Positions 3,514 to 64,000 of a stretch of 64,000 bases of DNA are shown piece after piece. Positions within the stretch are counted from its first letter, which is position 1; the number at the start of each line of letters is the position of its first letter. Below the pieces are notes generated by a model that was not told the origin of the DNA, made no database searches, and worked only from the letters and a program-made list of their open reading frames with translations. The translations under genes were made by a program, and so were the position numbers. Source of the stretch: Octopus vulgaris (Eukaryota); the NCBI GenBank assembly GCA_951406725.2, contig OX597822.1, positions 56,482,001-56,546,000 of the forward strand. Direction: 5' to 3'.

Positions 3514-3697
3514 CTGGACAATGGGTCTGTCCATTTTGGGGAGGAGATCTGTCCAAAAACCGCATATATTATTCATGTAATTCTCTTTCGTCTCAGGCTC
3601 TGCTTTATCGTCAATCACAATATATTTCTGGTTTTCGGGTGTGAACTTGGGCCATGGATCATTGGAGCAATCAGAACAACCTCCATTGTTAGGATTA
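3514..3697 (-). CDS. Cholinesterase-like gene copy A, second coding exon (GNPN...WPKF...CGFW)
   Basis: Acceptor TTTTCCAG|T, donor CAG|GTAAGT. Continues the phase-2 frame as G-NPNNGGCSDCSNDPWPKFTPENQKYIVID...ICGFWTDLLPK, the typical cholinesterase C-terminal catalytic segment. 184 nt versus 185 nt in copy B. Confidence 0.88.
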
Positions 3698-4361
3698 CTG
3701 GAAAACAATAAATCAAAGAGAAATCAAAACTTTAGGTAAGTGAGGCTTTGTGCTTATGGTAGGAAACATGATAGGAAATATTTTATGCAAGTGACTGGAG
3801 ATGAATTGATAGATTCGTTAGAACATCGGACAAGATGTCTGAGGTAACTATTTTCTGCCTCTTATATCAGTGTTCAAAATCCCATCGAGGTCAACTTTGA
3901 ATTTTAGTCTTCATGGATAAATAAAATATAATAGTTTCAAATTTTGGCACAAAGCCAGTAATGTCGAAGGAGTGGGTAAGTCGACTATATCGACCCCTGT
4001 GATCGACAGGTACTCAGTAGTAAATACTGAGATGAAATTAGTCGACAACAACCACCTTTAAAATGAATATCTTGTTTCTGTTCTGTTCAAGGTGGTAAAT
4101 GATTGACTTGGTTAAGCTTTGGATTAAAATACTTGGAGTGATATAATCACTCCAATATATAAATATATTTGTTACCTGTAATAAGTATAAGACATAGAGA
4201 TAGATAAAATAAATAAATCTATATAAAGGCATGGATACATACAGCATACCAACTGTACCATTTTATCGGGTCTTAGGACAACAGTAAAACAATAGGGTGA
4301 GAGGAAGGCCTCACTGCTGCTAAATATTATGATACACACACGCACTTACAATCACATGCGG

Positions 4362-4440
<79 letters not shown>

Positions 4441-4700
4441 CAAACAAGGACGCAAAAGCATGCGCACATAAGGACACACATCTTAGAAGAACAGAATGGA
4501 ATAAATGGAGAAAGACCTCACACGAAAACGAAAAGTGCCGCTGAAGAGGTCACACACTTGTGACAAAAGATTTCCGGACAATGGACATGAGTAAAATAAT
4601 AAAATAAGAACAGTAATAAAAGACTAAGAAAATATATATCTGTATAGTTATTGGCAAAATACAAAAAATAATACCATCCCGAAATACAATATATAAATAT

Positions 4701-4787
<87 letters not shown>

Positions 4788-4844
4788 GTGAAGGGAAGAA
4801 ATGGAGCTGAATGAAGATTCTACATAATTCCTTTTATTATCTTC

Positions 4845-4882
<38 letters not shown>

Positions 4883-4896
4883 CATACATACATACA

Positions 4897-4932
<36 letters not shown>

Positions 4933-4939
4933 TATATAG

Positions 4940-6380
4940 GGGGGGGGACATTTTTTCGGGCCTCCGTCGGTCATGGCTAACCATGGATGATGTCATCCGT
5001 CCGTTGAGTTGTCTATTCAGTTTTTTCAACGCCTCCTGTAGCTGTAGAGAGCGATGCGACAGTAGCAGTCTCATTTGCAGAGGTCACACCTATACGTTGA
5101 ATCCGGTCTGTTGGCTGTCATTTCTATTCTGCGGGTTCAGTTTTCAGCTGCCACCACCCTCAAATTCTCTTCGGCTGTCTGCGGTTGTTTGTGAAGAGTG
5201 CCTCGCCAGCTGGTTCGGTCGGCCGCGAGATCCTCCCAGGAATTGGTATTGATGCTAAGTGCCTTCATATCCCTTTTGCACACGTCACTGTACCTTAGCT
5301 TTGGGCGGCCAATGTTTCTCTGCCCTGCGACAAGCTCTCCGAAGAGAACATCCTTTGGGATCCGAACATCCTCCATACGGCGATCGTGATCAAGCCAGCG
5401 CAACCGAGGTTGTCTTAGAAAGGTGAGCAAGGTGGGGAGGCCAGCACGAGACAGAACGTCAGTATTGGTTACTTTGTTTTGGCAGGAGATGCCGAGTATG
5501 CGTCGGAGGCTTCTGAGGTGGAAGGTGTTAAGCCGTTTCTCCTGGCGGGCGTACGCAGTCCATGCCTCGCTACCGTATAGCAGGATGCTGAGGACGCAAC
5601 TCTATACACACCCATTTCCATTTTCACTGTTATCTTGGAATTTGTCCACACTCTTGGCGTGAGGCGAGCGAATGTTGTGGCTGCCTTCCCGATCCTCTTG
5701 TCTATCTCAGCATCTAGGGAGAGGTTGTCAGTGATAGAGGAACCAAGGTACATGAACTGGTGAACAACCTCGAGCTCATAGTTGTCGATGGTGATGACAG
5801 GTGGTGCCACCGTGTCTTGACCCATAACGTTTGTCTTCTTCAGACTGATAGTCATCCCAAAGTCTTTGCAAGCCTGGGTTAAGCAATCCATCAGCAGCTG
5901 CAGTTCCCTCTGAGTGTGAGTCGCAACTGCAGCGTCATTAGCGATCAGCATGTCTCTAATGAGAACTTCACGGATCTTTGTCCTCGCTTTTAGGCGGGCA
6001 AAATTGAACAGCCTACCATCCGATCTGGTCCGTAAGTATATTCCCTCTTGTGCTATGACAAATGCATGCCTCAGGAGGAGTGAGAAGATCCCGAAAAGAG
6101 TTGGGGCGAGTACGCAGCCTTGTTTAACTCCGCTGTCGTTGAACTGCGCAGTCTCTGTCATGTTGGAGTGGAAAGACTCAATTAAGCTGTGTAGTTTTGG
6201 AGGACAGCGATCTTTCGGAGATCCTTGAAAAGACCGTCGCTGCTGATAAGATTAAAGGCCTTGGTGAGGTCAATGTATGCGACATAGAGAAGTATCTGCA
6301 GCTCTCTGCAATTCTCCTGGAGATGGCCAAGAGTGAAGACCATGTCTACCGTGGATCTTTCAGCTCAGAAACCACACTGA
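4940..6380 (-). mobile_element. RTE-clade LINE, 5'-truncated RT and C-terminal region, in the copy A intron
   Basis: GVKQGCVLAPTLFGIF, DMLIANDAA (degenerate FADD), FMYLGS, RLRWLDHDRRMEDVRIPKDVLFGEL..GRPKLRYSD; frameshifted. Confidence 0.88.
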
Positions 6381-6860
6381 GTTGCTATCAGCTAATGTAA
6401 CAATCAATGAGCAAATCTACTTTCAACAATTAGACCGTTTGAACGATGCTTTGAAGAAAAAAGTCCTGCTTTAGTGAATCGAAAACGTGTGGTGTTTCAT
6501 CGGGACAATGCAAGATACCACTGTAAAAACCACGTCACAGAAGATCGAGGAACTTGGCTTGGAGAAAATTGCTCATCCATCTTATTCTCCAGACCATACT
6601 CTTCAGATTACCATTTGTTCCGTAGAATCATTTGGATGGATTAACTCTGAAAATAACTGAGGAAGTCGAAATTCGGGGTTTTCCTCTTCAAAATCGAAAG
6701 AGATTGTCACTAATGCGATAAAAAAAAATTACGAATAGATGGAAAGATGTCATAGATGGTCATGGAAACTATATCGACGATCAAATTTCATTAAAATGTA
6801 AGATTTGATCACTTGCTTTCCTTATTTAAAATCCGGACATTACTAATGAGATGAACTAAA
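6378..6860 (+). mobile_element. Mariner transposase remnant (truncated mirror of 49690-50780)
   Basis: NRKRVVFHRDNARYH and HPSYSPD..SDYHLFR motifs. Confidence 0.75.
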
Positions 6861-6867
6861 ATGTGTG

Positions 6868-6899
<32 letters not shown>

Positions 6900-7501
6900 C
6901 GTGTATGTGTGTGTGTATGTATGCATGTATGTATGTAGGTTTGTTTGTATGTATATACCAATATTCAACAGAGGTAACAGAGTGATTCAAGGTCTGAGAG
7001 TTTTCTGCGGTGACTTTTATCAAAGTTTGAGTAACTGTATTTTTCTAAGTCAATACACAAACGTTTCTACTTCGAAATTCTCTCATTACTACATTGGCTA
7101 GTACTGGGGAGTGTATATTTTATTGAGCTATTATAGAACTTATATATGTCTAAATTTATCTCCCTTTCTTGCCGAAAGGGTCAAAAACACATTAGTTAGT
7201 GGCTGTTATTATGTGTATGTGTGTATGTGCGTGTGTGTGTATATGTGAGTACGTGACAGTATGCACGCGAGCGCGTGTATATGATTCTCTGCGTCAGTTC
7301 CTGTATAATTGAATGAATCGCTTTGTATGCGAAAGTGTGAGGTGAGTAAATATACGTACTTCTCTCAGTGTACAGAAATTGCCATAGAACGAGCAAGAAC
7401 TATAAAAAGGAGACCAAAAATGAGTATAGACACACACACACACATACACACACCAATACACGCAAAAAGTAACATGAACAAATAAATAAATAAAAACTCA
7501 C

Positions 7502-8982
7502 CCTGATTTAGAAAAGTTAACAAAAAAGCTTGACATTCTTTCTGTCACTATTTTATCTTCTTCTGCAAACTCTTTTCTAGATAACGGGTGCGCAAATGTA
7601 AATATAACCTCATATCCATGCACTACACCCAACCATTTCGGCCAGGGATTTAATCGCGATCGAAACTCGAAAGAATACATGTAGACGTTGGAATGGCGGC
7701 TGAATTGCTCGGCGAATTTAAAAGCAGGACATGTAAATGCTGTATCTCCTGCTACTTGTTCTATTATGTATCTGTATTTTTCAGCTTCAGTAACGGAGAA
7801 GACACGAGAACCATAAAGATAGGTGATGACATCCATTTGCAGAGAATTTAGATATGTTGGCTGAGTAATACTTTTCATTAGTTTATGTGCAGTATCTGTT
7901 CCCATCGTCGCAATCCCATTTACAGGGATTTCTTTGGCAAATGCCGTCAGAACAAAAATACTTCCTTCATTTTCGACAAAACCAGTTAGCACATTTTTTT
8001 TCACGGTTTTATCGTTCAGAATTTCATTTAGATTTCCTGATAAGAAGTAATTGTCGACAACAGGAGTGAATGTAACTTGTAAGTAGTCATCTAACTTGAA
8101 GGATTGGGCTTCAGCTATTTTTTTAGCATCAGCTTCTAAAAAGCAATCTATCATCAATTTTGTGTTATCCACTGGACATTTAAGAGCAGAAGCCATTGCT
8201 TTTGCTCTATCGATGTTTCTATCTATTGATCTAATTGCCCAGTCGGAGGTGGTTGACCCACTCATCATGATAGCATTCCTGAAAAGCTTCCGAGAAAGTG
8301 GGGAAATAGTATGGAAACCAACAGATGCTGAACCAGCACTATGTCCAAACAGTGTCAGGCTACCAGGGTCTCCTCCGAAAGATGCAATATTATCATGAAT
8401 CCACTTTATAGCGAGGTTTTGATCAAGCAATCCCATATTACCCGGAGCACGCTCGTCATTTAAGGAAAGAAAACCAAAGGGACCTAATCTGTAATTTAGC
8501 GATGCAACGATAATATTTTGACTGGTAGCTAACCATTTTCCATCATACATTTCCAGCGTACTTGACCCAGAAACAAATGCACCTCCATGAATCCAAATCA
8601 TCGTGATTAAATTTGAACGAGATTTCCGTGATTCTGTTGGTGCCCAAATGTTTAAATAAAGACAATCTTCACTTATATTAGTTTTTAGATTCCATAAACT
8701 CTCAGCATCAACAACTCCCTGTGCTTGTTGTGCACACGCCGAAACATATTCCTTGGTGTCTTTTATACCACTCCACCTTTCAATTGGTTCAGGTCTTCTA
8801 AATCTTAGATTACCAACAGGAGGTTTAGCAAATGGTATTCCAAGAAATACATCAAGTTCAACATTCTGAACTGAAATGGTTGATCCTTTGATCTTCCCAG
8901 TGGTAGTATCAATTATCGGATCTTGCGCATAGATATAAGTTTTTAACAAAGAAATTATGAAAATATATTTCAATCCTTCCAT
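7502..8982 (-). CDS. Cholinesterase-like carboxylesterase, copy A, main coding exon
   Basis: Signal-peptide-like N-terminus; motifs FLGIPFAKPPVGNLRFRRP, SEDCLYLNIW, WIHGGAF, NYRLGPFGFL, GNMGLLDQ, FGHSAG (Ser), NEGS (Glu), WLGVVHGYE (His). Polypyrimidine-AG acceptor at 9013-9014 upstream of the ATG; donor GG|GTGAGT at 7502/7501 (phase 2). Confidence 0.93.
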
Positions 8983-9571
8983 GATATGAATGACTCAACT
9001 GTTGATGAAATTCTGAAAGAAAGAAAAGGAAAAAGAAGTTTTGATATACATCTCAGCTATTACATCACTAGTGTTTTGCAAAGAGCTGAAGCCACGTATT
9101 CGAGATTCAAGCAGAAAGCCTGAACCAGCATGGGTACGTAATTTAAAAAATAAAATTTTATTCCTGCTAAAAGTATCTTACAGATCGTTATAGCTATGAA
9201 ACGTAACACCGAGAACAACTTCACACATCACGAGGAAGACGTGAGAAAAGAAAACTACAGAGGCGATTTGGTGATACAGGATTCGGAATCCTACACTCTA
9301 AACTGCGCAACTGAAACAGCAATGCAAAGGTACAGCTGAAAAAGTAAAGTGTAAATCTACAACATATAAACGGCAAAATGCTCAATAAATTATTTGCTAG
9401 AGTTTCCAACTCAGGTTATCGCTACTTCAATGTAAAAGGCTCATTCCCTGTAAAACTAAAATACCCCCAGAGTGTACTGGAAACTTTATTCATCGCAACG
9501 ATCGAGTTACGGTGAATCCCACGTTGCAGAAGAGATGCTTCTTCACTATGGGATGCACCGTAATTCATAGT

Positions 9572-12500
9572 ATGTATATAATTTAGAGAAAAGACCACCA
9601 TTAAACAATTCAATAAAGAAGGATGTTATTCACACCATATAGAAAAAATATACTATAAAAACACCTTATTTTACATCAATAATGTACAATAAATAGTAAA
9701 CAGTAGTAAAAAAACTACGCAGGTTTCATAGCTATATTTTCAAATAGATAATAAAAATAAAATCAATTCGATTCAGAATTTAATCGAACTAAAATTAATT
9801 CTATTAAAAAATATAGTCAATCATCAGGTCTAAGATAATAAATAATAAAAAATAATAATACAATAAATGTACTTAACTTATACTAATTATCGAATAAATA
9901 TATAAAAAATACGTGTATTAACTATAAAGAATCGAAAAGCATTTAACAACACGTCTTAAAATAAAAATATAAACTTATCTTGTCGAAGGATTTTTCGTTA
10001 ACTACCAATTTAAACGTAAAACGTCGAACTTAGCGATTACAAGAAATATAAGAAATATATCGCGTGAAAATATGGCGTAAATAGAATTATAGAAGAAATA
10101 TATAGAAATATGTATATAAGCTATAAAAAATTTAAATTACAAATGTATTTTAGCTGTACGAAAAAGGAAAAAATAACTTTAATATACTATTAACTGGAAA
10201 AATTGTAAAGTCTAAATAATTTAAATACTAAATACGTTAAAAACATAATATAATAAACATAAATTAAGCTAAAATTCTATAATTTAATCTCTTTTCATTA
10301 ATTAATTTGTTTATTTTATAAACATCTAATTTTCAACATATTCTAATTATATAATATAGACTATATAATCTCGTGCTAATTTATACACATTTTACTGCAA
10401 CAAATTATAACTAATACAATTAGTAACATAAAACAGGGTTTATATATATACACAAATTGGCTAAACTTATTATATAAGTAATTTAATTTATGTCTGCAAT
10501 TAATTTTTCGTTCGTTGAGAGAATTAATTAAATTATTATTATTAGTTAATAATATCTCCTTACATTCGTCAGTACATAATAAACAAAAATTACTACCTAT
10601 TCGATATGATTCTGCCTTACAAACTATCTCCCAATTTAAATTGTACTTAATATTTTTAGATTTAAGTTTCCATATATATTTACTAAGGCCAGTAGAATTA
10701 TTTAAATTTCTATTCTTAAATGAATTCATCTGTTGAGCCACCCGTAATTTAATTTTATTAGAAGTCGACCCTATGTAAATTGCATTTAAATTATAACCAT
10801 TCCTATCATTATCATCAATTAAAGTCACTACACATTTATGCACTACATCATCGAAATTACATTTATTATTAAATTTACAATTAGTTTTATCACTAATTAG
10901 TACAATTAATTATATTATTATTATTATTAGTAGTAGTAGTAGTATCATTGGAATAATTATTTGATTTGTTTTGTAAAACTTATTTAGCTAAAATTTATTA
11001 AAAGAAATAATGTTCTCTACATTATTAGTAGTAGAATAACCACCTCCAAAATTATTACAAGAAAAAATGTTATAGTTTTTATTATTTCTAATCAATACTT
11101 CAATTACAGTTAATAATGTTTGTTTTAACTTGAGCTCCATAAGGAATAATTAACCAAATTTTGTTCTTTTTATTAATATTATTATATTTATTTATATTAT
11201 TAAATTTATTATTATCATTAAATGAATTAAATTTAATCTTATGTTTTAGTCTATTATTATATTTATGTTTTGTATTATCATAATACATATTATTAATACC
11301 ATTATTACCTAAATAAAACGTATCATAATTCTTAATGTTAGGTTTATTATTATAAAAAATATAGGAATCATTTATATTATAGTCTTTTATATTATATTCA
11401 TATTTAGAATTATTAAAGAATTTAATATTATTATTATATCCTGCCTCTCGCAGGGCTTCATTATAATAAGATGCGTGTTTTGGGAAAATCTCAAAATTAG
11501 AAGAAAGCAGCGATATTCTTTTACCTATATTATCTATTAATTATTTCTTAATAGAAGGTGGATGATTTAATATTAGCATTAATATATGTAAGGTTTTCAT
11601 TAATTTCATGGAATGGTTGGGTTTTACTTGTTATCAAATTAAAATTAGCATCTAAATAATTAACATTATAGTTCTCATTATATATAGTAATACTCAATCC
11701 ATATCTTTTAAAAAGCTATATAGTTTCTTCTTATATAATTCTAGTGATATATTGGTGCAATTCTTAGTTATTAATAAAAGATCATCCCTATATATATACC
11801 ACCTTCCAACTTTAATTTTTCTAATTGAAGTTCTGATAATAAATAAATACCTACTAAATCAGTTGCCTGTGCAGAATCGGGTACCCCCATAGGTATATCA
11901 AAATAGTTCCTAGTATCCTTCCTAGCCCACAATTTATTATTATATCTAATCAACGATTTCCTAGTCTTTTAACAACATTAACTTCATCATAAGTCATTCC
12001 TACCTTATTCATAGCATAAATTAAGGCCTTATTGAGTACTATCTCTTAATAGAAGAATGATAAATATCTATAACAATTCGAATTAATTTATATCTATCTT
12101 TATCTTTAATATTATTAAGCCATTTTAAAGTATCATTAGTACCAGTCCAAAGTTTAAGGTAATTATTTTCATTTAATCTATATATTTATCTAAAATGATC
12201 TTACTTAATTTACCTAGATCTGATTTACATGGACAAGTAAGTCTAACTTTTGGGTCAGAATAAAAATTATCCTTATGGTCTTTTAAAGTAATTCTAGGGT
12301 GCATAAGTTTCAGTTTTATTATCTAACTTTTATTTCATCATGATTAATTTAGAGTGCTTATTTATATTATAAAGAGTATTTTCTGGAACAATTTTATATT
12401 TTTTATTTATTTATTACACTCTCTAGGAGGTTATCATATAATTTAACTTCTAGTTTATACAGGTTCCTAGTTTTATCTGATTGTACTATAATTTCTTTCA

Positions 12501-13220
12501 TATTACGCATTTCTTTAATTCTAATAGCTAGATTTCTTAGATATTCATTATGTCTGTTTGGGTATTTATTAAATTCAACATTTTTCACCACCTTCCAAAT
12601 ATTATCCTCTAAAACCTGTATATCTCTATTATACGGGGGTTCATTTCTAGATTTAAATTTAGAATTGATATAATTAGCATTCTCTACATCGTTAAAATTA
12701 GATATGTTACAATTATTGTAGTAGGCTTTCCATTTAATCCTATTAATAAAATCTTTAATATTATTAATAAGTTTCAAAATATATTCTTTTCTAGATGGTA
12801 TAGGAATATCCTTCAAAGATGAATTCCAAAATAGCGGTTCTATCTTACCTGTAAGTTCCATAACTAACGAAAATGAGAGTTAAATACAATCGATAAACGT
12901 TAGTTATAAATATAAATACAAATATTATAATAATAGTAGTAGGGAATATAATTCCAAAACTTACAGGGAAAATTCAAATTAACAATTCTAAATGAAATTC
13001 CACAATATATAATATATGTATATAATTTAGAGAAAGATCACCATTAAACAATTCAATAAAGAAAGATGTTATTCACACCATATAGAAAAGATATACTATA
13101 AAAAAAAAACTTATTTATTGATTTAAAATAAGGATATTTTATTGTTTATCTTTTCTATATGGTGTGAATAACATCTTTATTGAATTATTTAATGGTGGTT
13201 TTTCTCTAAATCATATATAT
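9572..13220 (-). mobile_element. Near full-length degraded Penelope-like retroelement with direct and inverted pseudo-LTR copies
   Basis: N-terminus SLKDIPIPSRKEY..FINRIKWKAY (12403-12861); RT KDHKDNFYSDPKVRLTCP and IPMGVPDSAQATDLVGIY; GIY-YIG 10376-10843. 9572-9670 is repeated directly at 13016-13110 and inverted at about 13115-13220. Absent from the right arm. Confidence 0.88.
9712..9831 (-). ncRNA. Type I hammerhead ribozyme candidate in the Penelope 3' region
   Basis: Minus strand: agac CUGAUGA [about 93-nt stem II with ctatatttt/aaaatatag and ttagttcgatt/aatcgaattga pairing] GAAA c-ctgc-g UA gttt. Confidence 0.65.
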
Positions 13221-34264: not shown

Positions 34265-35240
34265 GTGCTTTATCTTTGCAAGCTTAACCTTCTTACTTCC
34301 AATAATTGCGGTTCTATGGCATTTTTTACATACCATGCTATGTTGTTTTCTTCTGCTCTAATGCTGCGTTCACATCCAATCAGTCCTCTTCCTCCTCTTT
34401 TTCTTGGTATATACAGTCTGTCTGTGTCACTTTTTGCGTGGAGTATCCCACATCTAATCAGCATCTTCCTTGTCTTTCTCTTTAAGCTGTTTAGATCGTC
34501 TACTGTCCATGCGATTACCCCTGATCCATATCTAAAGAGTGAAATCGCCCAGGTGTTGATAGATTCAATCTTATTCCGTCCGTTTAAATTCGACTTAAAG
34601 ATCAGTCTCAGCCTGCGCAAGTACTCCACCTTAAATTTTTCTGTCATTTCTTTCTCCATCAATTTATCCATTTCCAGTATCTCAAAGTATTTGTAGCCCG
34701 TTTCTTCTGCTTCATAACCTCCTCCGACAGTATCGCTAGCCCGTCTATACATTTTATTTTGCCTCTCTTCAAGACTAACACACCACACCTTTTCAGTCCG
34801 AACTTCATTCTGATATCAGTACTGAAAGTATACGCCGTATCAAAGAGGGAACTAACTTGAGATTCATCTTTACCATAATGTTTGATGTTATCTAGTGGTT
34901 GACTTTTTGTTGGCGGCTTTTGAATACATACCCTGCCTTTGTTTTCCTCAGAATCAATGTTAGTGGTATCATGCCCCGTACAAAGATCAGTGGGGACAGG
35001 CAGACACCTTTGAAGATGCCTCTTTTGATTTCTATTGCCCCTAAACTTCTTCAATATGCTGTCAGTTCCGTACTCCACTTCGCCATACATTTTCCAAGCA
35101 ATCGCTCAACAGTCGATGCAATACCAAACAGATCCATGCATTCCATAATCCAAGAGTGTGGGATCATATCGTACGCCTTACAATAATCGATCCATCACAT
35201 GGCTACGTTAGTTTTCCTCCTTTTGCAGTCTCTAAATACA
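34265..35240 (-). mobile_element. Second R4/Dong-like LINE RT fragment
   Basis: IDYCKAYDMIPHSWI, MKFGLKRCG, YKYFEILE, LNGRNKIESINTWAI, DRLYIPRKRGGRGL. Confidence 0.82.
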
Positions 35241-35389
35241 GGACATTGGAGGGTTCAGTAAGTACCCTGCAAAAAAACTTTCAAGAAAAACCCTTCCTCA
35301 CTACTCCCTCGACCAAAAAGAAGACTGTGTTAACAGTCAGCTCTGAAGACTAAGATACACAATTCCATTTTCTTTCCTCTAAGTTAAAT

Positions 35390-36440
35390 GGCTACACTTA
35401 GAGTTGACTATGTAAATATTCGAGACCTGGGTTCGGCTTGGAAGCAGGGTCAGCTGCTCAACGATTTCACGTCCCTAAATATAGATGTCACATCAAATAG
35501 GGAGACGTTAAATTGATGGAAAACATGATCTTGCAACCATTTTCGAAGACTACGCGGTATTCTCATCTTGTGATCTGTCAGGAGCAGGCGGCGGTATAGC
35601 AGTGTTATTCCGAAAATCATTAGATCTCAAAGTAAGGGCAATTTTCTTGGACCCGAACGGTAGGTTGGTGGTTCAGGTGCTGAATGGCGATGAAGGTAGT
35701 ACTCTTAGATTGGTGGCCGTGTATGCTCCGACAGGAGCTGGGAAGCCAGATTTCTTCAGGCGTCTAGAAACATTCCTGGGAACATCTCGCACTTTAGTAC
35801 TACTGGGGTGCTGGAATAGTATTTTGGACGCACGGAAGACTGTGTGGATTTAGTACGTAGTAATGGGGGGGGGTGTAAAAGCCTCGAAAACTCGTTCAGA
35901 AACTTCCAGCTTTCTAACTGTTATCGATTGAATTTCGCTGATGTGCTAGTGTGGATATGGAGCAATCACAATGGGTCATCCAGATCGCATCTACATAGAG
36001 TATTTGTTAGGTCAGCAGATAGGGATAGTATTGGGTGTCCACACTTCAAATTGGTCGGCTACACAGATCTGATGGAAAACATAAAGGAGGCGATGTAGGC
36101 ATTCGCCACCGCTGCTCGACCTTTCAAGGACAGCTTCTTCTCAGCCCATTTCTCTCCAGATTCTCAGTCACAAGCCCCTGCAACGGACTCATATTCTTCT
36201 TGAATGGAGCTGACCATCTCTAAATCGGAAGCGTCTGACATCATGACGGTTCGCGTATGCAGACACTTTCTTCCCTGTCTAGGCGTCCTATCTAAACCGA
36301 CTGTGCATCACTTACAGTGCAGTTATTCAGGGAGATGATTTATCATTTTTTAACAGTACAAAGAAAACCTTCTTTCGCGCCTGTTGATCGTGGTAGTATG
36401 GACGACCCAGAATCCTTAGATACGGTTTCGAATCTAAGCT
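35390..36440. mobile_element. Tx1/L1-like LINE: APE endonuclease (plus) joined to an inverted RT-region fragment (minus)
   Basis: Plus: GIAVLFRKS..GRLVV..LVAVYAPT..DFF..LLGCWNSILD. From about 36070, minus: WAEKKLSLKGRAAVANAYIAS. Confidence 0.7.
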
Positions 36441-40412: not shown

Positions 40413-41742
40413 TACTGGCGAAAATAAAGTTAAGACTGGTGATAAAAGTTCTATTTCTTGCAAAATATTTTGTTACTAACACCATACAAGTTATTTTTAT
40501 CTTTTATACCTTATGCAGAATTTATTTCTCTTTCGAATGATTCAGACAATAACTATTTTATACAACTTGAAGAATTCAATATAAATGTTTCAAATTTACC
40601 GGCAAAATTAGTTTAAGATCGAATCATTATAATTTTTTTTAAAGCTTAAGATTGTAGCAAAAATGAGCAACAAGAACGAAATACATATTAGTACTTTGTG
40701 CCATAGCCTTTATTCCTAATAACGGCTGGACAACGCCTCAGCATTGAATTCGCTAAGTGATTACAAAATTCTATGGGAATGTTTTGCCATATTTCATTGA
40801 TATAATCGAATAATTGTTTTAGATTAGATGGTTTTTTAGCATGGACTTTTTTGGAAACATAATTCCACAAGTTCTCGATCGGATTCAGGTACGGGCTCTG
40901 GGGAGGCAATTAGATTACGACAATTTTATGGTGATCAAAAAATTCCATAACTTTTTGGCTCTGTGCACAAGACTATTGTCCTTCTGATAAATAGCCCCCG
41001 AAGGCATTTGGTGAGTCAAATACAGTACAACATTATCCTTTACTAGATTCATATAACTTACACTATTTAGCTTTCCATCAACTTTAACTAGAGGGCCAAC
41101 ACCAAAGCTAATAAATGCCGCCCACACCACCACAACCCCACCACCCGCTTGCGCTGTCTTTTTCACGCATTTCAGACGGAATTCCTTGGTTGGGCGACGC
41201 CTGATGTATGTTTTACCATCTGATCCAAATATACAGAAGCGTGACTCGTCACTCCAAAGGACCCTGCACCAATCTTCGGCAGTCCACTGAGCATGGCTTT
41301 TTGCAAAATTAAGGCGTTTGAGTCGATTTCTTTCAGATATTATTCGTTTTTTCCTAGCGATTTGTCCGTATAGTCCAAATTCTCACAAACGGTTGCGGAC
41401 GGATTGTGGCGTAAAAATAAATCCATTCTCGTTCGACAATTGTTTACAAATGTCAACGGTTGTCAGCATTCGGTTGCCTTCCGAAAGTCGGTCGATTCGA
41501 TAGTCCAACTGTGCCGTCGTTTTTCTTGGGGCGCCAGTCCTTTGCCGATCTTTATATTGACAAGTCTCCGAGTATCGAATTCTTCAAGTTGTATAAAAAT
41601 AGTTATTATCTGCATCATTCGAAAGAGAAATAAATTCTGCATAAGGTGTAAAAGATATAAATAATTTGTATGGTGTTAGTAGCAAAATATTTTGTAAGAA
41701 ATAGAACTTTTATCATTTGTCTTAAATTTATTTTCGCCAGTG
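40413..41742 (-). mobile_element. Tc1-family DNA transposon with about 170-bp TIRs, transposase frameshifted
   Basis: TA-flanked (C/T)ACTGGCGAAAATAAA termini; VLWSDESRF, VVWAAF, YQKDNS, PPQSPYLNPIENLW (DD34E-type). Confidence 0.9.
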
Positions 41743-47408: not shown

Positions 47409-48888
47409 ATGGAAGGATTGAAATATATTTTCATAATTTCTTTGTTAAAAACTTATATCTATGCGCAAGATCCGATCTTTGATACTACCACTGGGAAGAT
47501 CAAAGGATCAACCATTTCAGTTCAGAATGTTGATCTTGATGTATTTCTTGGAATACCATTTGCTAAACCTCCTGTTGGTAATCTAAGATTTAGAAGACCT
47601 GAACCAATTGAAAGGTGGAGTGGTATAAAAGACACCAAGGAATATGTTTCGGCGTGTGCACAACAAGTACAGGGAGTTGTTGATCCTGACAGTTTATGGA
47701 ATCTAAAAACTAATATAAGTGAAGATTGTCTTTATTTGAACATTTGGGCACCAACAGAATCACGGAAATCTCGTTCAAATTTAACCACGATGATTTGGAT
47801 ACATGGAGGTGCATTTGTTTCTGGGTCAAGTACGCTGGAAATGTATGATGGAAAATGGTTAGCTACCAGTCAAAATATTATCGTTGCATCACTAAATTAC
47901 AGATTAGGGCCCTTTGGTTTTCTTTCCTTAAATGACGAGCGTGCTCCGGGTAATATGGGATTGCTTGATCAAAACCTCGCTATAAAGTGGATTCATGATA
48001 ATATTGCATCTTTCGGAGGAGACCCTGGTAGCCTGACACTGTTTGGACATAGTGCTGGTTCAGCATCTGTTGGTTTTCATACTATTTCCCCACTTTCTCG
48101 GAAGCTTTTCAGGAATGCTATCATGATGAGTGGGTCAACCACCTCCGACTGGGCAATTAGATCAATAGATAGAAACATCGATAGAGCAAAAGCAATGGCT
48201 TCTGCTCTTAAATGTCCAGTGGATAACACTAAATTGATGATAGATTGCTTTTTAGAAGCTGATGCTAAAAAAATAGCTGAAGCCCAATCTTTCAAGTTAG
48301 ATGACTACTTAAAAGTTACTTTCACTCCTGTTGTCGACAATTACTTCTTATCAGGAAATCTAAATGAAATTCTGAACGATACAACCGTGAAAAAAACGTG
48401 CTAACTGGTTTTGTCGAAAATGAAGGAAGTATTTTTGTTCTGACGGCATTTCCAAAAGAAATCCCTGTAAATGGGATTGCGACGATGGGAACAGATACTG
48501 CACATACACTAATGAAAAGTATTACTCAGCCAACATATCTAAATTCTCTGCAAATGGATGTCATCACCTATCTTTATGGTTCTCGTGTCTTCTCCGTTCC
48601 AAAAGCTGAAAAATACAGATACATAATAGAACAAGTATCAGGAGATACATCATTTAAATGTCCTGCTTTTAAATTTGCCGAGCAATTCAGCCGCCATTCC
48701 AACGTCTACATGTATTCTTTCGAGTTTCGATCGCGATTAAATCCCTGGCCGAAATGGTTGGGTGTAGTGCATGGATATGATGTTATATTCGCGTTTGCGC
48801 ACCCGTTATCTAGAAAAGAGTTTGCAGAAGAAGATAAAATAGTGACAGAAAGAATGTCAAGCTTTTTTGTTAACTTTTCTAAATCAAG
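47409..48888 (+). CDS. Cholinesterase-like carboxylesterase, copy B, main coding exon (1-nt frameshift in the A-run at 48390-48396)
   Basis: Nearly identical to copy A. Split into ORFs 47409-48404 and 48398-48892 because the run has 7 A where copy A has 8. Acceptor TTTCAG ends at 47378; donor AG|GTGAGT at 48888. Either a pseudogene or a homopolymer sequencing error. Confidence 0.88.
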
Positions 48889-57109: not shown

Positions 57110-57294
57110 TAATCCTAACAATGGAGATTGTTCTGATTGCTCCAATGATCCATGGCCCAAGTTCACACCCAAAAACCAGAAATATATTGTGATTGACGAC
57201 AAAGCAAAACCTGAGACGAAGGAGAATTACATGAACAACATATGCGGTTTGTGGACAGACCTTCTCCCAGAATTAAAGGGACCTTTTTGTCCAG
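57110..57294 (+). CDS. Cholinesterase-like gene copy B, second coding exon
   Basis: Acceptor ATTTTCCAG|T; translates S-NPNNGDCSDCSNDPWPKFTPKNQKYIVIDDKAKPETKENYMNNICGLWTDLLPELKGPFCP; possible donor G|GTAACA (phase 1). Not in the ORF track. Confidence 0.87.
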
Positions 57295-62439: not shown

Positions 62440-63524
62440 ATAACTTAGAATAACTTAGAAAGGTTTTTGGCCAGTATTGGCCCAGGCCATGTCTAACTTA
62501 ATAGCACCACCTGGCGAAGTCTTTCAGTTCAGGATTTGGGCACCAAGGCCCATTCGAGCAGAGAGTTATTGTTTGCGGAGACATATCCGGGTGTGGATGG
62601 TTTGTCCGGTACTGTTTGAAGGAATTTGTCCAAAGACTTCTTGAATTTTGTGTGGTCAGTTTCTTTTTTGACGTGTCCTGGTGTAATGTTGAAGAGAGCG
62701 GGTCCAATTGAGGTGAAATAGTTGTGCCGTATTGTCGTTATGTGATGCGATTTAGATTTTTGTTGTGGACGGATGGCACGTGGTCCAAGCCTTGGATGCA
62801 TTTTGAAGGTGATGCCAACATCATTCGGACAGTGCTGATGGAATATTTTCCACATCATACAGATAATGTAGCGTTCACGGCGTCGTTGGAGTGAATACAA
62901 TTTCAGCTTCTCTAGTCTACCCCAGTAGTCAAGGTCTGACATGCCATCTATCTTTTTTGTGATTGACCTTTGGGGAGCTTCAATTCTCATAATATTTTGT
63001 TTTGTGTAGGGAGACCACAGTGGACAACAGTATTCAAGGTGGGGTCGGGCAAAAGTGGAGAAGAGAAGGATAATAGCGTGGGAATCTCTCGACTGGAAGG
63101 TTCTGAGAATCCAGGAACAGATTCTGCGGGCCATGTCAACTTTGCTGCTTATATGTGTAGCCCAGCTTATGTTGTTGTCCACTGTTACTCCCAGGTCTCT
63201 GATGTTGTTGGATGCCATGAGAATTTCTCCAGAAGGAAGAGAGTATGGGAGTTTCAGAGCGTCCTCCCTTCCAAAGTGGATCAGTTCGAATTTGTCTTCA
63301 TTTAGCAACATGTTATTCTTTTCCGCCCATTGGACAACAGCTAGTAGGTCTGACTGAAGGTTTATTCGGTCATCCACGCCATTGATGACCTTCTGGAGCT
63401 TGGAATCATCAGCGAAGGTTCTGATGTTGCTGTGTTTGATGGTGTCAGTAATATCATTTATGTAGATGATGAAGAGAAGTGGGCCCAACACAGTGCCTTG
63501 TGGGACACCACTGCTGACTTTGGC
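62440..63524 (-). mobile_element. CR1-group LINE, 5'-truncated, open RT and C-terminal frame
   Basis: SGVPQGTVLGPLLFIIYINDI, FADDSKL, RDLGV, RPHLEYC..WSP, LYSLQRRRER; 3' tandem tail (TTCTAAGTTA)2; inserted in (TA)n. Confidence 0.88.
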
Positions 63525-64000
63525 TATATATATATATCTTGACCTAAAGCATTTTATGCCAGTTGGGGTTCACACACGTCATTACCACACGTAGATGTAA
63601 ACATTTAAATTTGATGTTAATATTACGAAAAATTACATCCTCATTGGTATTTTATCGTTGCCTAGTATTCATCTAGCATACCTTTGATCAAAGAGAAATC
63701 TATCCGTGACAATTCTGATTTTTTTTGTGTGCTTTGTATGCTTCCTAATATAATTCTTGGTGGGATTTAGTGGAAAGTAACACTGAATTTGGCTAAATTT
63801 ACAATCTGCACTCCCCCACATCTCTCTCTCTCTCTTTCACACACACATACACAAACACATACACAAACACACACAGACATACTGACACAGACAAACACAC
63901 ACACACAAATATATGTCTGTCATAGACTATACTTACAGCATTACATACATTTACCTTGTACCATTGCAATAAGATACAACTCGTTAACGAACGTTTATTT

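What the first reader, a model, noticed from the sequence alone, without database searches (positions are those of the whole stretch)
7502..8982. Atypical cholinesterase: GHSAG elbow and a butyrylcholinesterase-like acyl pocket in an invertebrate
By-eye alignment to Torpedo AChE numbering: S200/E327/H440, W84, W114, Y130, W233, F331, W432, Y442 and all three disulfides are kept. Changed are E199 to H, G119 to A, Y121 to V, Y70/D72 lost with an omega loop 3 residues shorter, W279 lost, F330 to I and Y334 to T. F288/F290 become L/V (DYLQVTF), the same pair as vertebrate BChE L286/V288. There is also an extra CSDC motif after GNPN. This predicts a secreted broad-specificity esterase without a peripheral anionic site, possibly for detoxification, secretion or chemosensory clearance. 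The function is inferred.
Basis: partly seen in the sequence, partly recalled or inferred. Interest (0 to 1): 0.7.

Follow-up and report, generated by a model that had tools for sequence, protein, structure and literature searches.

The report
Octopus cholinesterase cluster with diversifying pockets
This is one of ten side-by-side copies of an octopus cholinesterase-like gene whose substrate pockets differ widely from copy to copy; this copy has lost its membrane-anchor tail and likely works as a secreted, broad-range ester-splitting enzyme rather than as the nerve enzyme acetylcholinesterase.

Summary
The residue list is confirmed by formal alignment: triad and W84 kept; E199H, G119A, D72Q, L288/V290; 7 of 14 gorge aromatics. 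The stretch is the first coding exon of one gene (copy A) in a 0.5-Mb tandem array of 10 cholinesterase-like loci in an Octopus vulgaris-type genome. The array belongs to a molluscan GPI-tailed clade, apart from the ace-1-type gene on another contig and from vertebrate BChE (AU p=0.002), so the BChE-like pocket is convergent; 19 of 52 non-vertebrate rows also lack aromatics at both sites. Gorge sites vary more than the rest among octopod paralogs (ratio 1.45-1.79) and less among ace-1 orthologs (0.53-0.64); gorge omega 0.68-0.78 is not above 1. New here: a 1-base deletion at the end of exon 2 shifts exon 3, so copy A lacks the dimer cysteine and GPI signal; spliced contigs and a second study's contig carry it. 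Best reading: a likely secreted broad-specificity esterase; rival: a decaying duplicate. No kinetics, no tissue data.

The parts
7502..9012 (-). Copy A, first coding exon (ATG at 8982; codons 1-494: signal peptide about residues 1-19, by eye, and most of the catalytic domain). Acceptor AG at 9014-9013 read from the sequence; donor GT at 7501-7500.
   Evidence: PF00135 E=4e-135; contig X1 record 8 covers 8950-9014 and has 28 other letters before it
8338..8343 (-). His214-Ser215 of the GHSAG elbow (Torpedo E199H, S200)
8074..8082 (-). Leu301-Gln302-Val303, acyl-pocket loop (Torpedo 288-290)
7966..7968 (-). Glu339, triad acid (E327)
7618..7620 (-). His455, triad base (H440)
3514..3697 (-). Copy A exon 2 (184 nt; 185 in copy B): NPN, CxxC, C539 of the third disulfide. 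A 1-base deletion near 3519-3520 removes the C-terminal Cys and puts exon 3 in another frame. Exon 3 lies left of the window (starts G000:C9:56480508, in L042) and gives the tail DQQADHKISGHSREKF-stop; protein 571 aa.
   Evidence: same tail in public model P0004; contigs X2 records 17, 19 and X18 record 9
47409..48888 (+). Copy B, inverted twin, first coding exon; 33 substitutions and one gap against A. One A is missing in an A-run near 48390 in this assembly; a B-like contig (X1 record 4) crosses that place without a gap, so this may be an assembly error or an allele.
57110..57294 (+). Copy B exon 2, normal phase, keeps the C-terminal Cys; its exon 3 (GPI-type tail) starts just right of the window (about G000:C9:56546021)

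Best explanation
Copy A is a transcribed, spliced member of an octopod tandem array of cholinesterase-like genes; it keeps the Ser-Glu-His triad and W84, has lost half the gorge aromatics, D72, E199 and its membrane-anchor tail, and likely works as a soluble, monomeric, broad-specificity ester scavenger outside the synapse. Shown: array, clade, residue states, splice joins, frameshifted tail. Inferred from AChE/BChE mutagenesis: a wider gorge takes butyryl or bulkier and neutral esters, acetylcholine is turned over more slowly, substrate inhibition is absent, BW284c51 binds poorly. Inferred: after duplication the gorge was released from the constraint seen in ace-1, and each paralog holds a different pocket, so the array covers a range of esters; A adds a released form next to the GPI-tethered twin B.
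For: Triad, oxyanion glycines 117/118, A201, W84 and six core Cys intact. Model of the 96%-identical O. sinensis twin P0086: pLDDT 90.2, TM 0.83-0.84 to human BChE and Torpedo AChE. Non-gorge codons of 8 paralogs under purifying selection, omega 0.39-0.42, far from 1 (2dlnL 154 and 136). Gorge sites differ more than other sites among 8 O. vulgaris paralogs (ratio 1.64 on 35 sites, P<0.0001; 1.58 on 18 paper-defined sites, P=0.007, 12 of 474 shifts) and 5 Argonauta paralogs (1.79; 1.45, P=0.04), but less among 14 ace-1 orthologs (0.64; 0.53) and 10 other molluscan clade members (0.61; 0.54). H199, A119, V121, L288, V290 are shared by the O. vulgaris, O. sinensis and O. bimaculoides orthologs. 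Contig X2-19 joins exon 1 to exon 2 of A with 0 mismatches (671 and 60 letters); X2-17 carries 156 letters of A exon 2 with 0 mismatches and goes on into exon 3; X18-9, another study, spans the deletion with 1 mismatch and no gap. Tail hydropathy 0.21 against 1.83-2.67 in 12 of the 13 octopod paralog proteins scored (the 13th, P0013, 0.35). A-derived 9 and B-derived 8 amino-acid changes, none in the triad. Effects of such substitutions on inhibitors and pocket size: PMC3045457 passages.
Against: No enzyme data. Gorge omega 0.68-0.78 is not different from 1 (2dlnL 2.2 and 0.9): relaxed constraint explains it as well as selection. Without paralog g1 the 18-site excess falls to 1.27 (P=0.13). Between A and the O. 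bimaculoides ortholog 5 of 35 gorge sites differ against 47 of 440 others (P=0.57), so the new pocket is not specially conserved. Among the listed pieces an A-exact transcript contig appears in 1 of 3 RNA-like runs, at depth 2, while X1 and X4 show B-like contigs (table cut; contigs cannot rank expression; X2 may be the same animal as the assembly, not determined). The O. bimaculoides ortholog and twin B keep the anchor, so secretion is recent and may be a lesion.
Confidence: 0.55

Rival explanations
1. Copy A is a decaying duplicate: the working enzyme is the GPI-anchored twin B, and the lost tail is the first lesion of a pseudogene.
For: Loss of anchor and dimer Cys by frameshift; the only other locus of 10 with a shifted exon-2 end is the broken g2; the array holds a pseudogene and 4 orphan last exons; A-exact contigs at depth 2 in one run; no A-type protein among the O. 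sinensis or O. bimaculoides records seen.
Against: 494-codon exon fully open with all catalytic residues; 11 synonymous and 17 non-synonymous codon differences to B; changes split evenly between A and B; B-derived residues shared with O. sinensis imply that the duplication predates that split (inference); the stop lies in the last exon, so decay of the mRNA is not expected (established knowledge).
Confidence: 0.22
2. The paralogs still clear acetylcholine or related choline esters outside synapses (blood, white body, regenerating tissue); the copies divide expression sites and the gorge changes are mostly drift under relaxed constraint.
For: W84, Y130, F331, Y442 kept; gorge omega not above 1; an 'ache' marks white-body/blood cells in O. 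bimaculoides (10.1101/2022.06.11.495763 passages; which paralog is not stated there); the cloned O. vulgaris AChE AHG95983 is array member g10.
Against: D72, E199, Y70, Y121, F330 and Y334, which guide and hold the choline head, are all changed in A; a separate ace-1-type gene with 11 of 14 aromatics exists; length changes in the omega loop (23-28 residues among O. vulgaris paralogs).
Confidence: 0.14
3. Copy A is a saliva or venom-gland enzyme, released as a soluble monomer like snake-venom AChE (that comparison is recalled).
For: Predicted soluble form; AChE-like contigs reported in both salivary glands of Paroctopus digueti (PMC12607849 passages), paralog unknown.
Against: No tissue data; the blue-ringed octopus venom genome paper (PMC7656900) and an O. 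vulgaris salivary proteome re-analysis (PMC7693380) show 0 occurrences of 'cholinesterase' in the search listing; a weakened choline site suits a paralysing AChE poorly.
Confidence: 0.06
4. The protein is a non-catalytic, neuroligin-like adhesion or ligand-binding molecule.
For: E199H and G119A flank the catalytic centre; non-classical roles are proposed for octopus AChE (PMC5430041 passages).
Against: Triad invariant in all 77 rows of alignment A1 (S215, E339, H455); no transmembrane tail.
Confidence: 0.03

Closest known systems
Octopus vulgaris 'acetylcholinesterase' AHG95983 / A0A075D677 (P0007; taken to be the clone of Fossati et al. 2014, seen only as a citation in PMC5430041, paper not held)
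   Same: Same array (locus g10, C9:56711362), 61% identical, same three-exon plan, A119, L288, F400, CxxC
   Different: g10 keeps D72, E199, Y290, Y330, Y334 (11 of 14 aromatics), a 26-residue omega loop and the GPI-type tail
Vertebrate butyrylcholinesterase (human numbering L286/V288/A328/F398)
   Same: Same six gorge aromatics replaced (70, 121, 279, 288, 290, 330); L/V acyl pocket with F400 opposite (PMC3045457 Table 1); top sequence and fold hits
   Different: Not orthologous (AU p=0.002); BChE keeps D70, Y332, G117 and as a rule E197; T-peptide absent here
Teleost atypical BChE (medaka, GPI-anchored; PMC3045457)
   Same: Intermediate gorge and GPI-type dimer tail, as in this array's other members
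   Different: Groups with vertebrate BChE in the tree; 10 of 14 aromatics; copy A has no tail
Octopus ace-1-type AChE (G000:C3:91.99 Mb, L011, P0115)
   Same: Cholinesterase fold and triad; 37% identical
   Different: Clade of insect and molluscan ace-1 (100/99); amphipathic T-like tail; G119, Y121, E199, W279, F290 kept; gorge conserved across molluscs
Insect GHSAG carboxylesterases (honeybee GB18660 and Anopheles candidate JHEs; PMC1761136 passage) and Xenopus tropicalis BChE F7BPW9 (GHSAG; PMC4108472 Table 2)
   Same: His before the catalytic Ser
   Different: Other lineages; independent origins (inference)

Membership tests
Carboxyl/cholinesterase family (PF00135) | COesterase domain and alpha/beta-hydrolase fold | tested here: met
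   452 bits against cut-off 27; twin model TM 0.83-0.84 to BChE and AChE
Cholinesterases | Ser-Glu-His triad | tested here: met
   S215, E339, H455
Cholinesterases | Choline-binding W84 and three intrachain disulfide pairs | tested here: met
   W97; C83/C107, C269/C280, C418/C539 by alignment; bonds themselves not observed
Cholinesterases | FGESAG elbow (E199) | tested here: not met
   GHSAG; 5 of 298 motifs; precedent in X. tropicalis BChE
Cholinesterases | Hydrolysis of choline esters, inhibition by physostigmine | not testable with these tools
   needs enzyme assay
Acetylcholinesterase (ace-1 type) | Orthology with ace-1 | tested here: not met
   separate clades; the C3 gene is the ace-1 member
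Acetylcholinesterase (ace-1 type) | Aromatic acyl pocket (F290, F288 in vertebrates) and peripheral site Y70, D72, Y121, W279, Y334 | tested here: not met
   L, V; Q, Q, V, S, T; site list from PMC12447245 Table 3
Butyrylcholinesterase | Orthology with vertebrate BChE | tested here: not met
   AU test, 19 rows held together, dlnL 50.4, p=0.00195
Butyrylcholinesterase | Aliphatic acyl pocket L286/V288 with F398 | tested here: met
   L301, V303, F416
Butyrylcholinesterase | D70 and Y332 at the gorge mouth | tested here: not met
   Q88, T346
Butyrylcholinesterase | Butyrylthiocholine preference, iso-OMPA or ethopropazine sensitivity | not testable with these tools
   needs enzyme assay
GPI-anchored (H-type) cholinesterase dimers | C-terminal Cys, then omega site and hydrophobic stretch (PMC3045457) | tested here: not met
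   absent in copy A (hydropathy 0.21, no Cys after C539); exon-2 phase normal in 8 of 10 loci, g3 and g4 without the Cys. Simple hydropathy only, no GPI predictor was run
Molluscan second cholinesterase clade, cephalopod branch | Clade membership and CxxC after GNPN | tested here: met
   100/100 for the 14-row cephalopod branch, 99/97 for the 19-row molluscan group; CxxC
Venom-type soluble AChE (recalled) | Expression in a venom gland | not tested
   run tissues are not shown by the tools

The most novel reading that the evidence does not exclude
Octopods turned a non-synaptic cholinesterase into a tandem repertoire of surface-tethered and secreted esterases with individually tuned gorges, expanded separately in Octopus and Argonauta, that clear or process the ligands sensed by the acetylcholine-receptor-derived chemotactile receptors of the suckers (those receptors are recalled from the literature): receptor and degrading enzyme of the cholinergic synapse both co-opted for tasting by touch.
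Probability: 0.12. Interest if true: 0.85.

Novelty: new variant of a known kind. Interest (0 to 1): 0.48.

Why it matters
The single substitutions have precedents, but the array is a natural mutagenesis series of the cholinesterase gorge: eight open paralogs with different residues at 119, 199, 288, 290, 330, 334 and 442 on a conserved scaffold, with a parallel set in Argonauta. It makes the route from choline esterase to general esterase testable. It also bears on octopus neurobiology: the sequence deposited as O. vulgaris AChE is an array member, not the ace-1 ortholog, so histochemical 'AChE' activity, 'ache' cell markers and B-esterase biomarkers in octopus may report several enzymes. I found no description of the array in 10 searches of the held library; subscription journals are mostly not held, and the genes are already auto-annotated as 'cholinesterase 2-like'.

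Tried and rejected
BChE ancestry: rejected. ace-1 identity: rejected. Positive selection on the gorge: not shown; pairwise ratios above 1 used whole-exon dS and fell to 0.68-0.78 in codon models. Gene conversion as the cause of the conserved block at residues 151-215: rejected, synonymous differences there are 0.27-0.35 like elsewhere. A and B as two haplotypes of one gene: unlikely, they are inverted with flanks 74-94% alike and run X18 holds both types. Fold search cannot tell BChE from AChE. Run search: no RNA holder listed, kinds are guesses and tissues are not shown. The joint 3698-7743 in X4 has no canonical ends and was set aside. The 50%-representative search collapsed the cephalopod clade into P0002 and added nothing. 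Earlier-finding look-ups returned nothing. Fossati 2014 is not held; Talesa 1999 on Loligo AChE was seen only as a citation, so its clade is not placed. Supplements of the bioRxiv preprint, which may name the 'ache' paralog, were not seen. No complex prediction was run.

Full report
What is there. The window is G000:C9:56482001-56546000 of a 2.8-Gb genome; C9 has the same length, 119,340,044, as the contig of named Octopus vulgaris proteins. The finding is the first coding exon of a minus-strand gene (ATG 8982, donor after 7502). Exon 2 is at 3697-3514 and exon 3 starts 1.5 kb left of the window. An inverted twin, copy B, lies at 47409-48888 and 57110-57294.

Observation. Seven of the 14 gorge aromatics of PMC3045457 Table 1 remain (W84, W114, Y130, W233, F331, W432, Y442). 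Six of the seven lost are those lost in human BChE; Y334, D72 and E199 are lost as well. F400 faces L288, the arrangement that this paper describes for aliphatic 288. Position 279 and the omega-loop columns are alignment-dependent. A model of the O. sinensis twin P0086 (96% identical to the exon) has pLDDT 90.2 and matches BChE and AChE equally; I could not inspect its gorge.

How unusual. A non-aromatic 288 is the rule in invertebrates (45 of 52 rows); both sites are non-aromatic in 19 of 52, 13 of them octopod paralogs. CxxC marks the whole cephalopod clade (41 of 315 stored proteins) and GHSAG only this gene's copies and orthologs (5 of 298). GHSAG is printed for X. tropicalis BChE and for insect esterases.

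The array. Between C9 56.25 and 56.75 Mb lie 10 loci: 8 with an open first exon at 61-77% identity to A (A included), B with a 1-base gap in an A-run, and a broken g2, plus four orphan last exons. O. bimaculoides, O. sinensis and Argonauta hians have several copies each. In trees of 63 rows (quick) and 35 rows (careful) they form an octopod clade (100/100), sister to two unnamed proteins P0015 and P0016, inside a molluscan group (99/97) whose members mostly end in hydrophobic tails. Four of five Argonauta copies group together (100/99), so that expansion is partly independent. P0015 and P0016 were the only non-octopod close relatives among the best 120 of 483 hits; that they are squid or cuttlefish is a guess. 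The gene on C3 groups with insect and molluscan ace-1 (100/99), and vertebrate BChE groups on that side; forcing the cephalopod clade with BChE is rejected (p=0.002). The deposited O. vulgaris AChE AHG95983 is array member g10.

Gorge divergence. With 35 gorge sites (list partly recalled) the mean pairwise difference is 1.64 times that of other sites among 8 O. vulgaris paralogs and 1.79 among 5 Argonauta paralogs, against 0.64, 0.61 and 0.70 in ace-1 orthologs, other clade members and vertebrate BChE-like rows. With 18 sites taken from tables in PMC3045457 and PMC12447245 the ratios are 1.58 (P=0.007), 1.45 (P=0.04), 0.53, 0.54, 0.71; leaving out g1 gives 1.27 (P=0.13). Codon models on the 8 genes give omega 0.39-0.42 outside the gorge and 0.68-0.78 inside, the latter not different from 1. 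The constraint on the gorge is lifted; positive selection is not shown. Between O. vulgaris and O. bimaculoides orthologs gorge and other sites differ at similar rates in 4 of 5 pairs, faster in g1.

The lost anchor. In 8 of 10 loci exon 2 ends in the phase that reads exon 3 as a GPI-type tail; A and the broken g2 do not. A's exon 2 is one base shorter than B's, which removes the last Cys and yields a 571-residue protein ending DQQADHKISGHSREKF, as in the public model P0004. Contig X2-19 joins exon 1 and exon 2 of A without a mismatch, X2-17 runs from A's exon 2 into exon 3, and X18-9 from another study spans the deletion without a gap; depth in X2 is 2. X1 and X4 show B-like contigs; X1-4 crosses B's A-run without a gap and X1-1 runs from B's exon 2 end into exon 3 in the tail frame. 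A and B differ by 11 synonymous and 17 non-synonymous codons; polarised on O. bimaculoides, 9 changes fall on A, 8 on the B line (O. sinensis sequence), 3 are unclear.

Mechanism. Catalysis would be the usual acyl-serine cycle. From the mutagenesis reviewed in PMC3045457 (passages), aliphatic 288/290 open the pocket to bulkier acyl groups and iso-OMPA, and loss of Y70, Y121 and F330 weakens BW284c51 binding; loss of D72 and E199 should lower choline guidance and substrate inhibition (recalled). I put 0.55 on a secreted broad-range scavenger, 0.22 on a decaying duplicate, 0.14 on plain non-synaptic choline-ester clearance, 0.06 on a salivary enzyme, 0.03 on a non-catalytic role.

Papers. Passages read: PMC3045457, PMC12447245, PMC4108472, PMC1761136, PMC5430041, PMC6896357, PMC12607849, PMC12961712, PMC3264636, bioRxiv 2022.06.11.495763. 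Listings only: PMC7656900, PMC7693380. Not seen: Fossati 2014, Talesa 1999. Ten searches showed no account of the array; three returned no paper.

Verdict. Real, correctly described, a new variant of a known enzyme family. Interest 0.48.

Noticed in passing
L008 (G000:C9:56711362-56712849) and L011 (G000:C3:91994946-91996433): The deposited O. vulgaris 'acetylcholinesterase' AHG95983 is an array member; the ace-1 ortholog is the C3 gene, which has Ala at 442 (shared with Argonauta and P0117) where other ace-1 rows have Asp, and a T-like amphipathic tail.
   Followed up: partly
window 48389-48395: Copy B lacks one A in an A-run in this assembly and is annotated as a 331-aa fragment (P0085); a B-like contig and the O. 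sinensis protein P0086 are open, so an assembly error or allele is possible.
   Followed up: partly
L012/L014 (G000:C9:56273803-56274781): Broken paralog g2: 5'-truncated, frameshifted, exon 2 shortened.
   Followed up: partly
G000:C9:56231424, 56319100, 56353729, 56438557: Four orphan copies of the GPI-tail exon without their own upstream exons.
   Followed up: no
L009 (G000:C9:56251634-56253109): Paralog g1 is the most eroded open copy (5 of 14 aromatics, Q199, R288, N233, T441-N442) and its gorge differs from the O. bimaculoides match at 15 of 35 sites.
   Followed up: partly
window 3514-3697 versus 57110-57294: Exon 2 of A and B differ at 20 of 184 bases, exon 1 at 33 of 1481; exon 1 may have been homogenised or the end of exon 2 exchanged with another paralog.
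   Followed up: no
L013, L015 (G000:C3:56.05 and 55.99 Mb): Two distant carboxylesterase-like single-exon frames; L015 lacks the GxSxG elbow and L013 lacks an obvious triad His motif, so they may be non-catalytic.
   Followed up: no
window 5137-6251, 62529-63569, 34270-35853, 10376-12879, 6372-6957, 40915-41382: Fragments that look like reverse-transcriptase retroelements, Penelope-like elements and mariner/Tc1-like transposases (by eye), one mariner-like piece shared by the introns of A and B.
   Followed up: no
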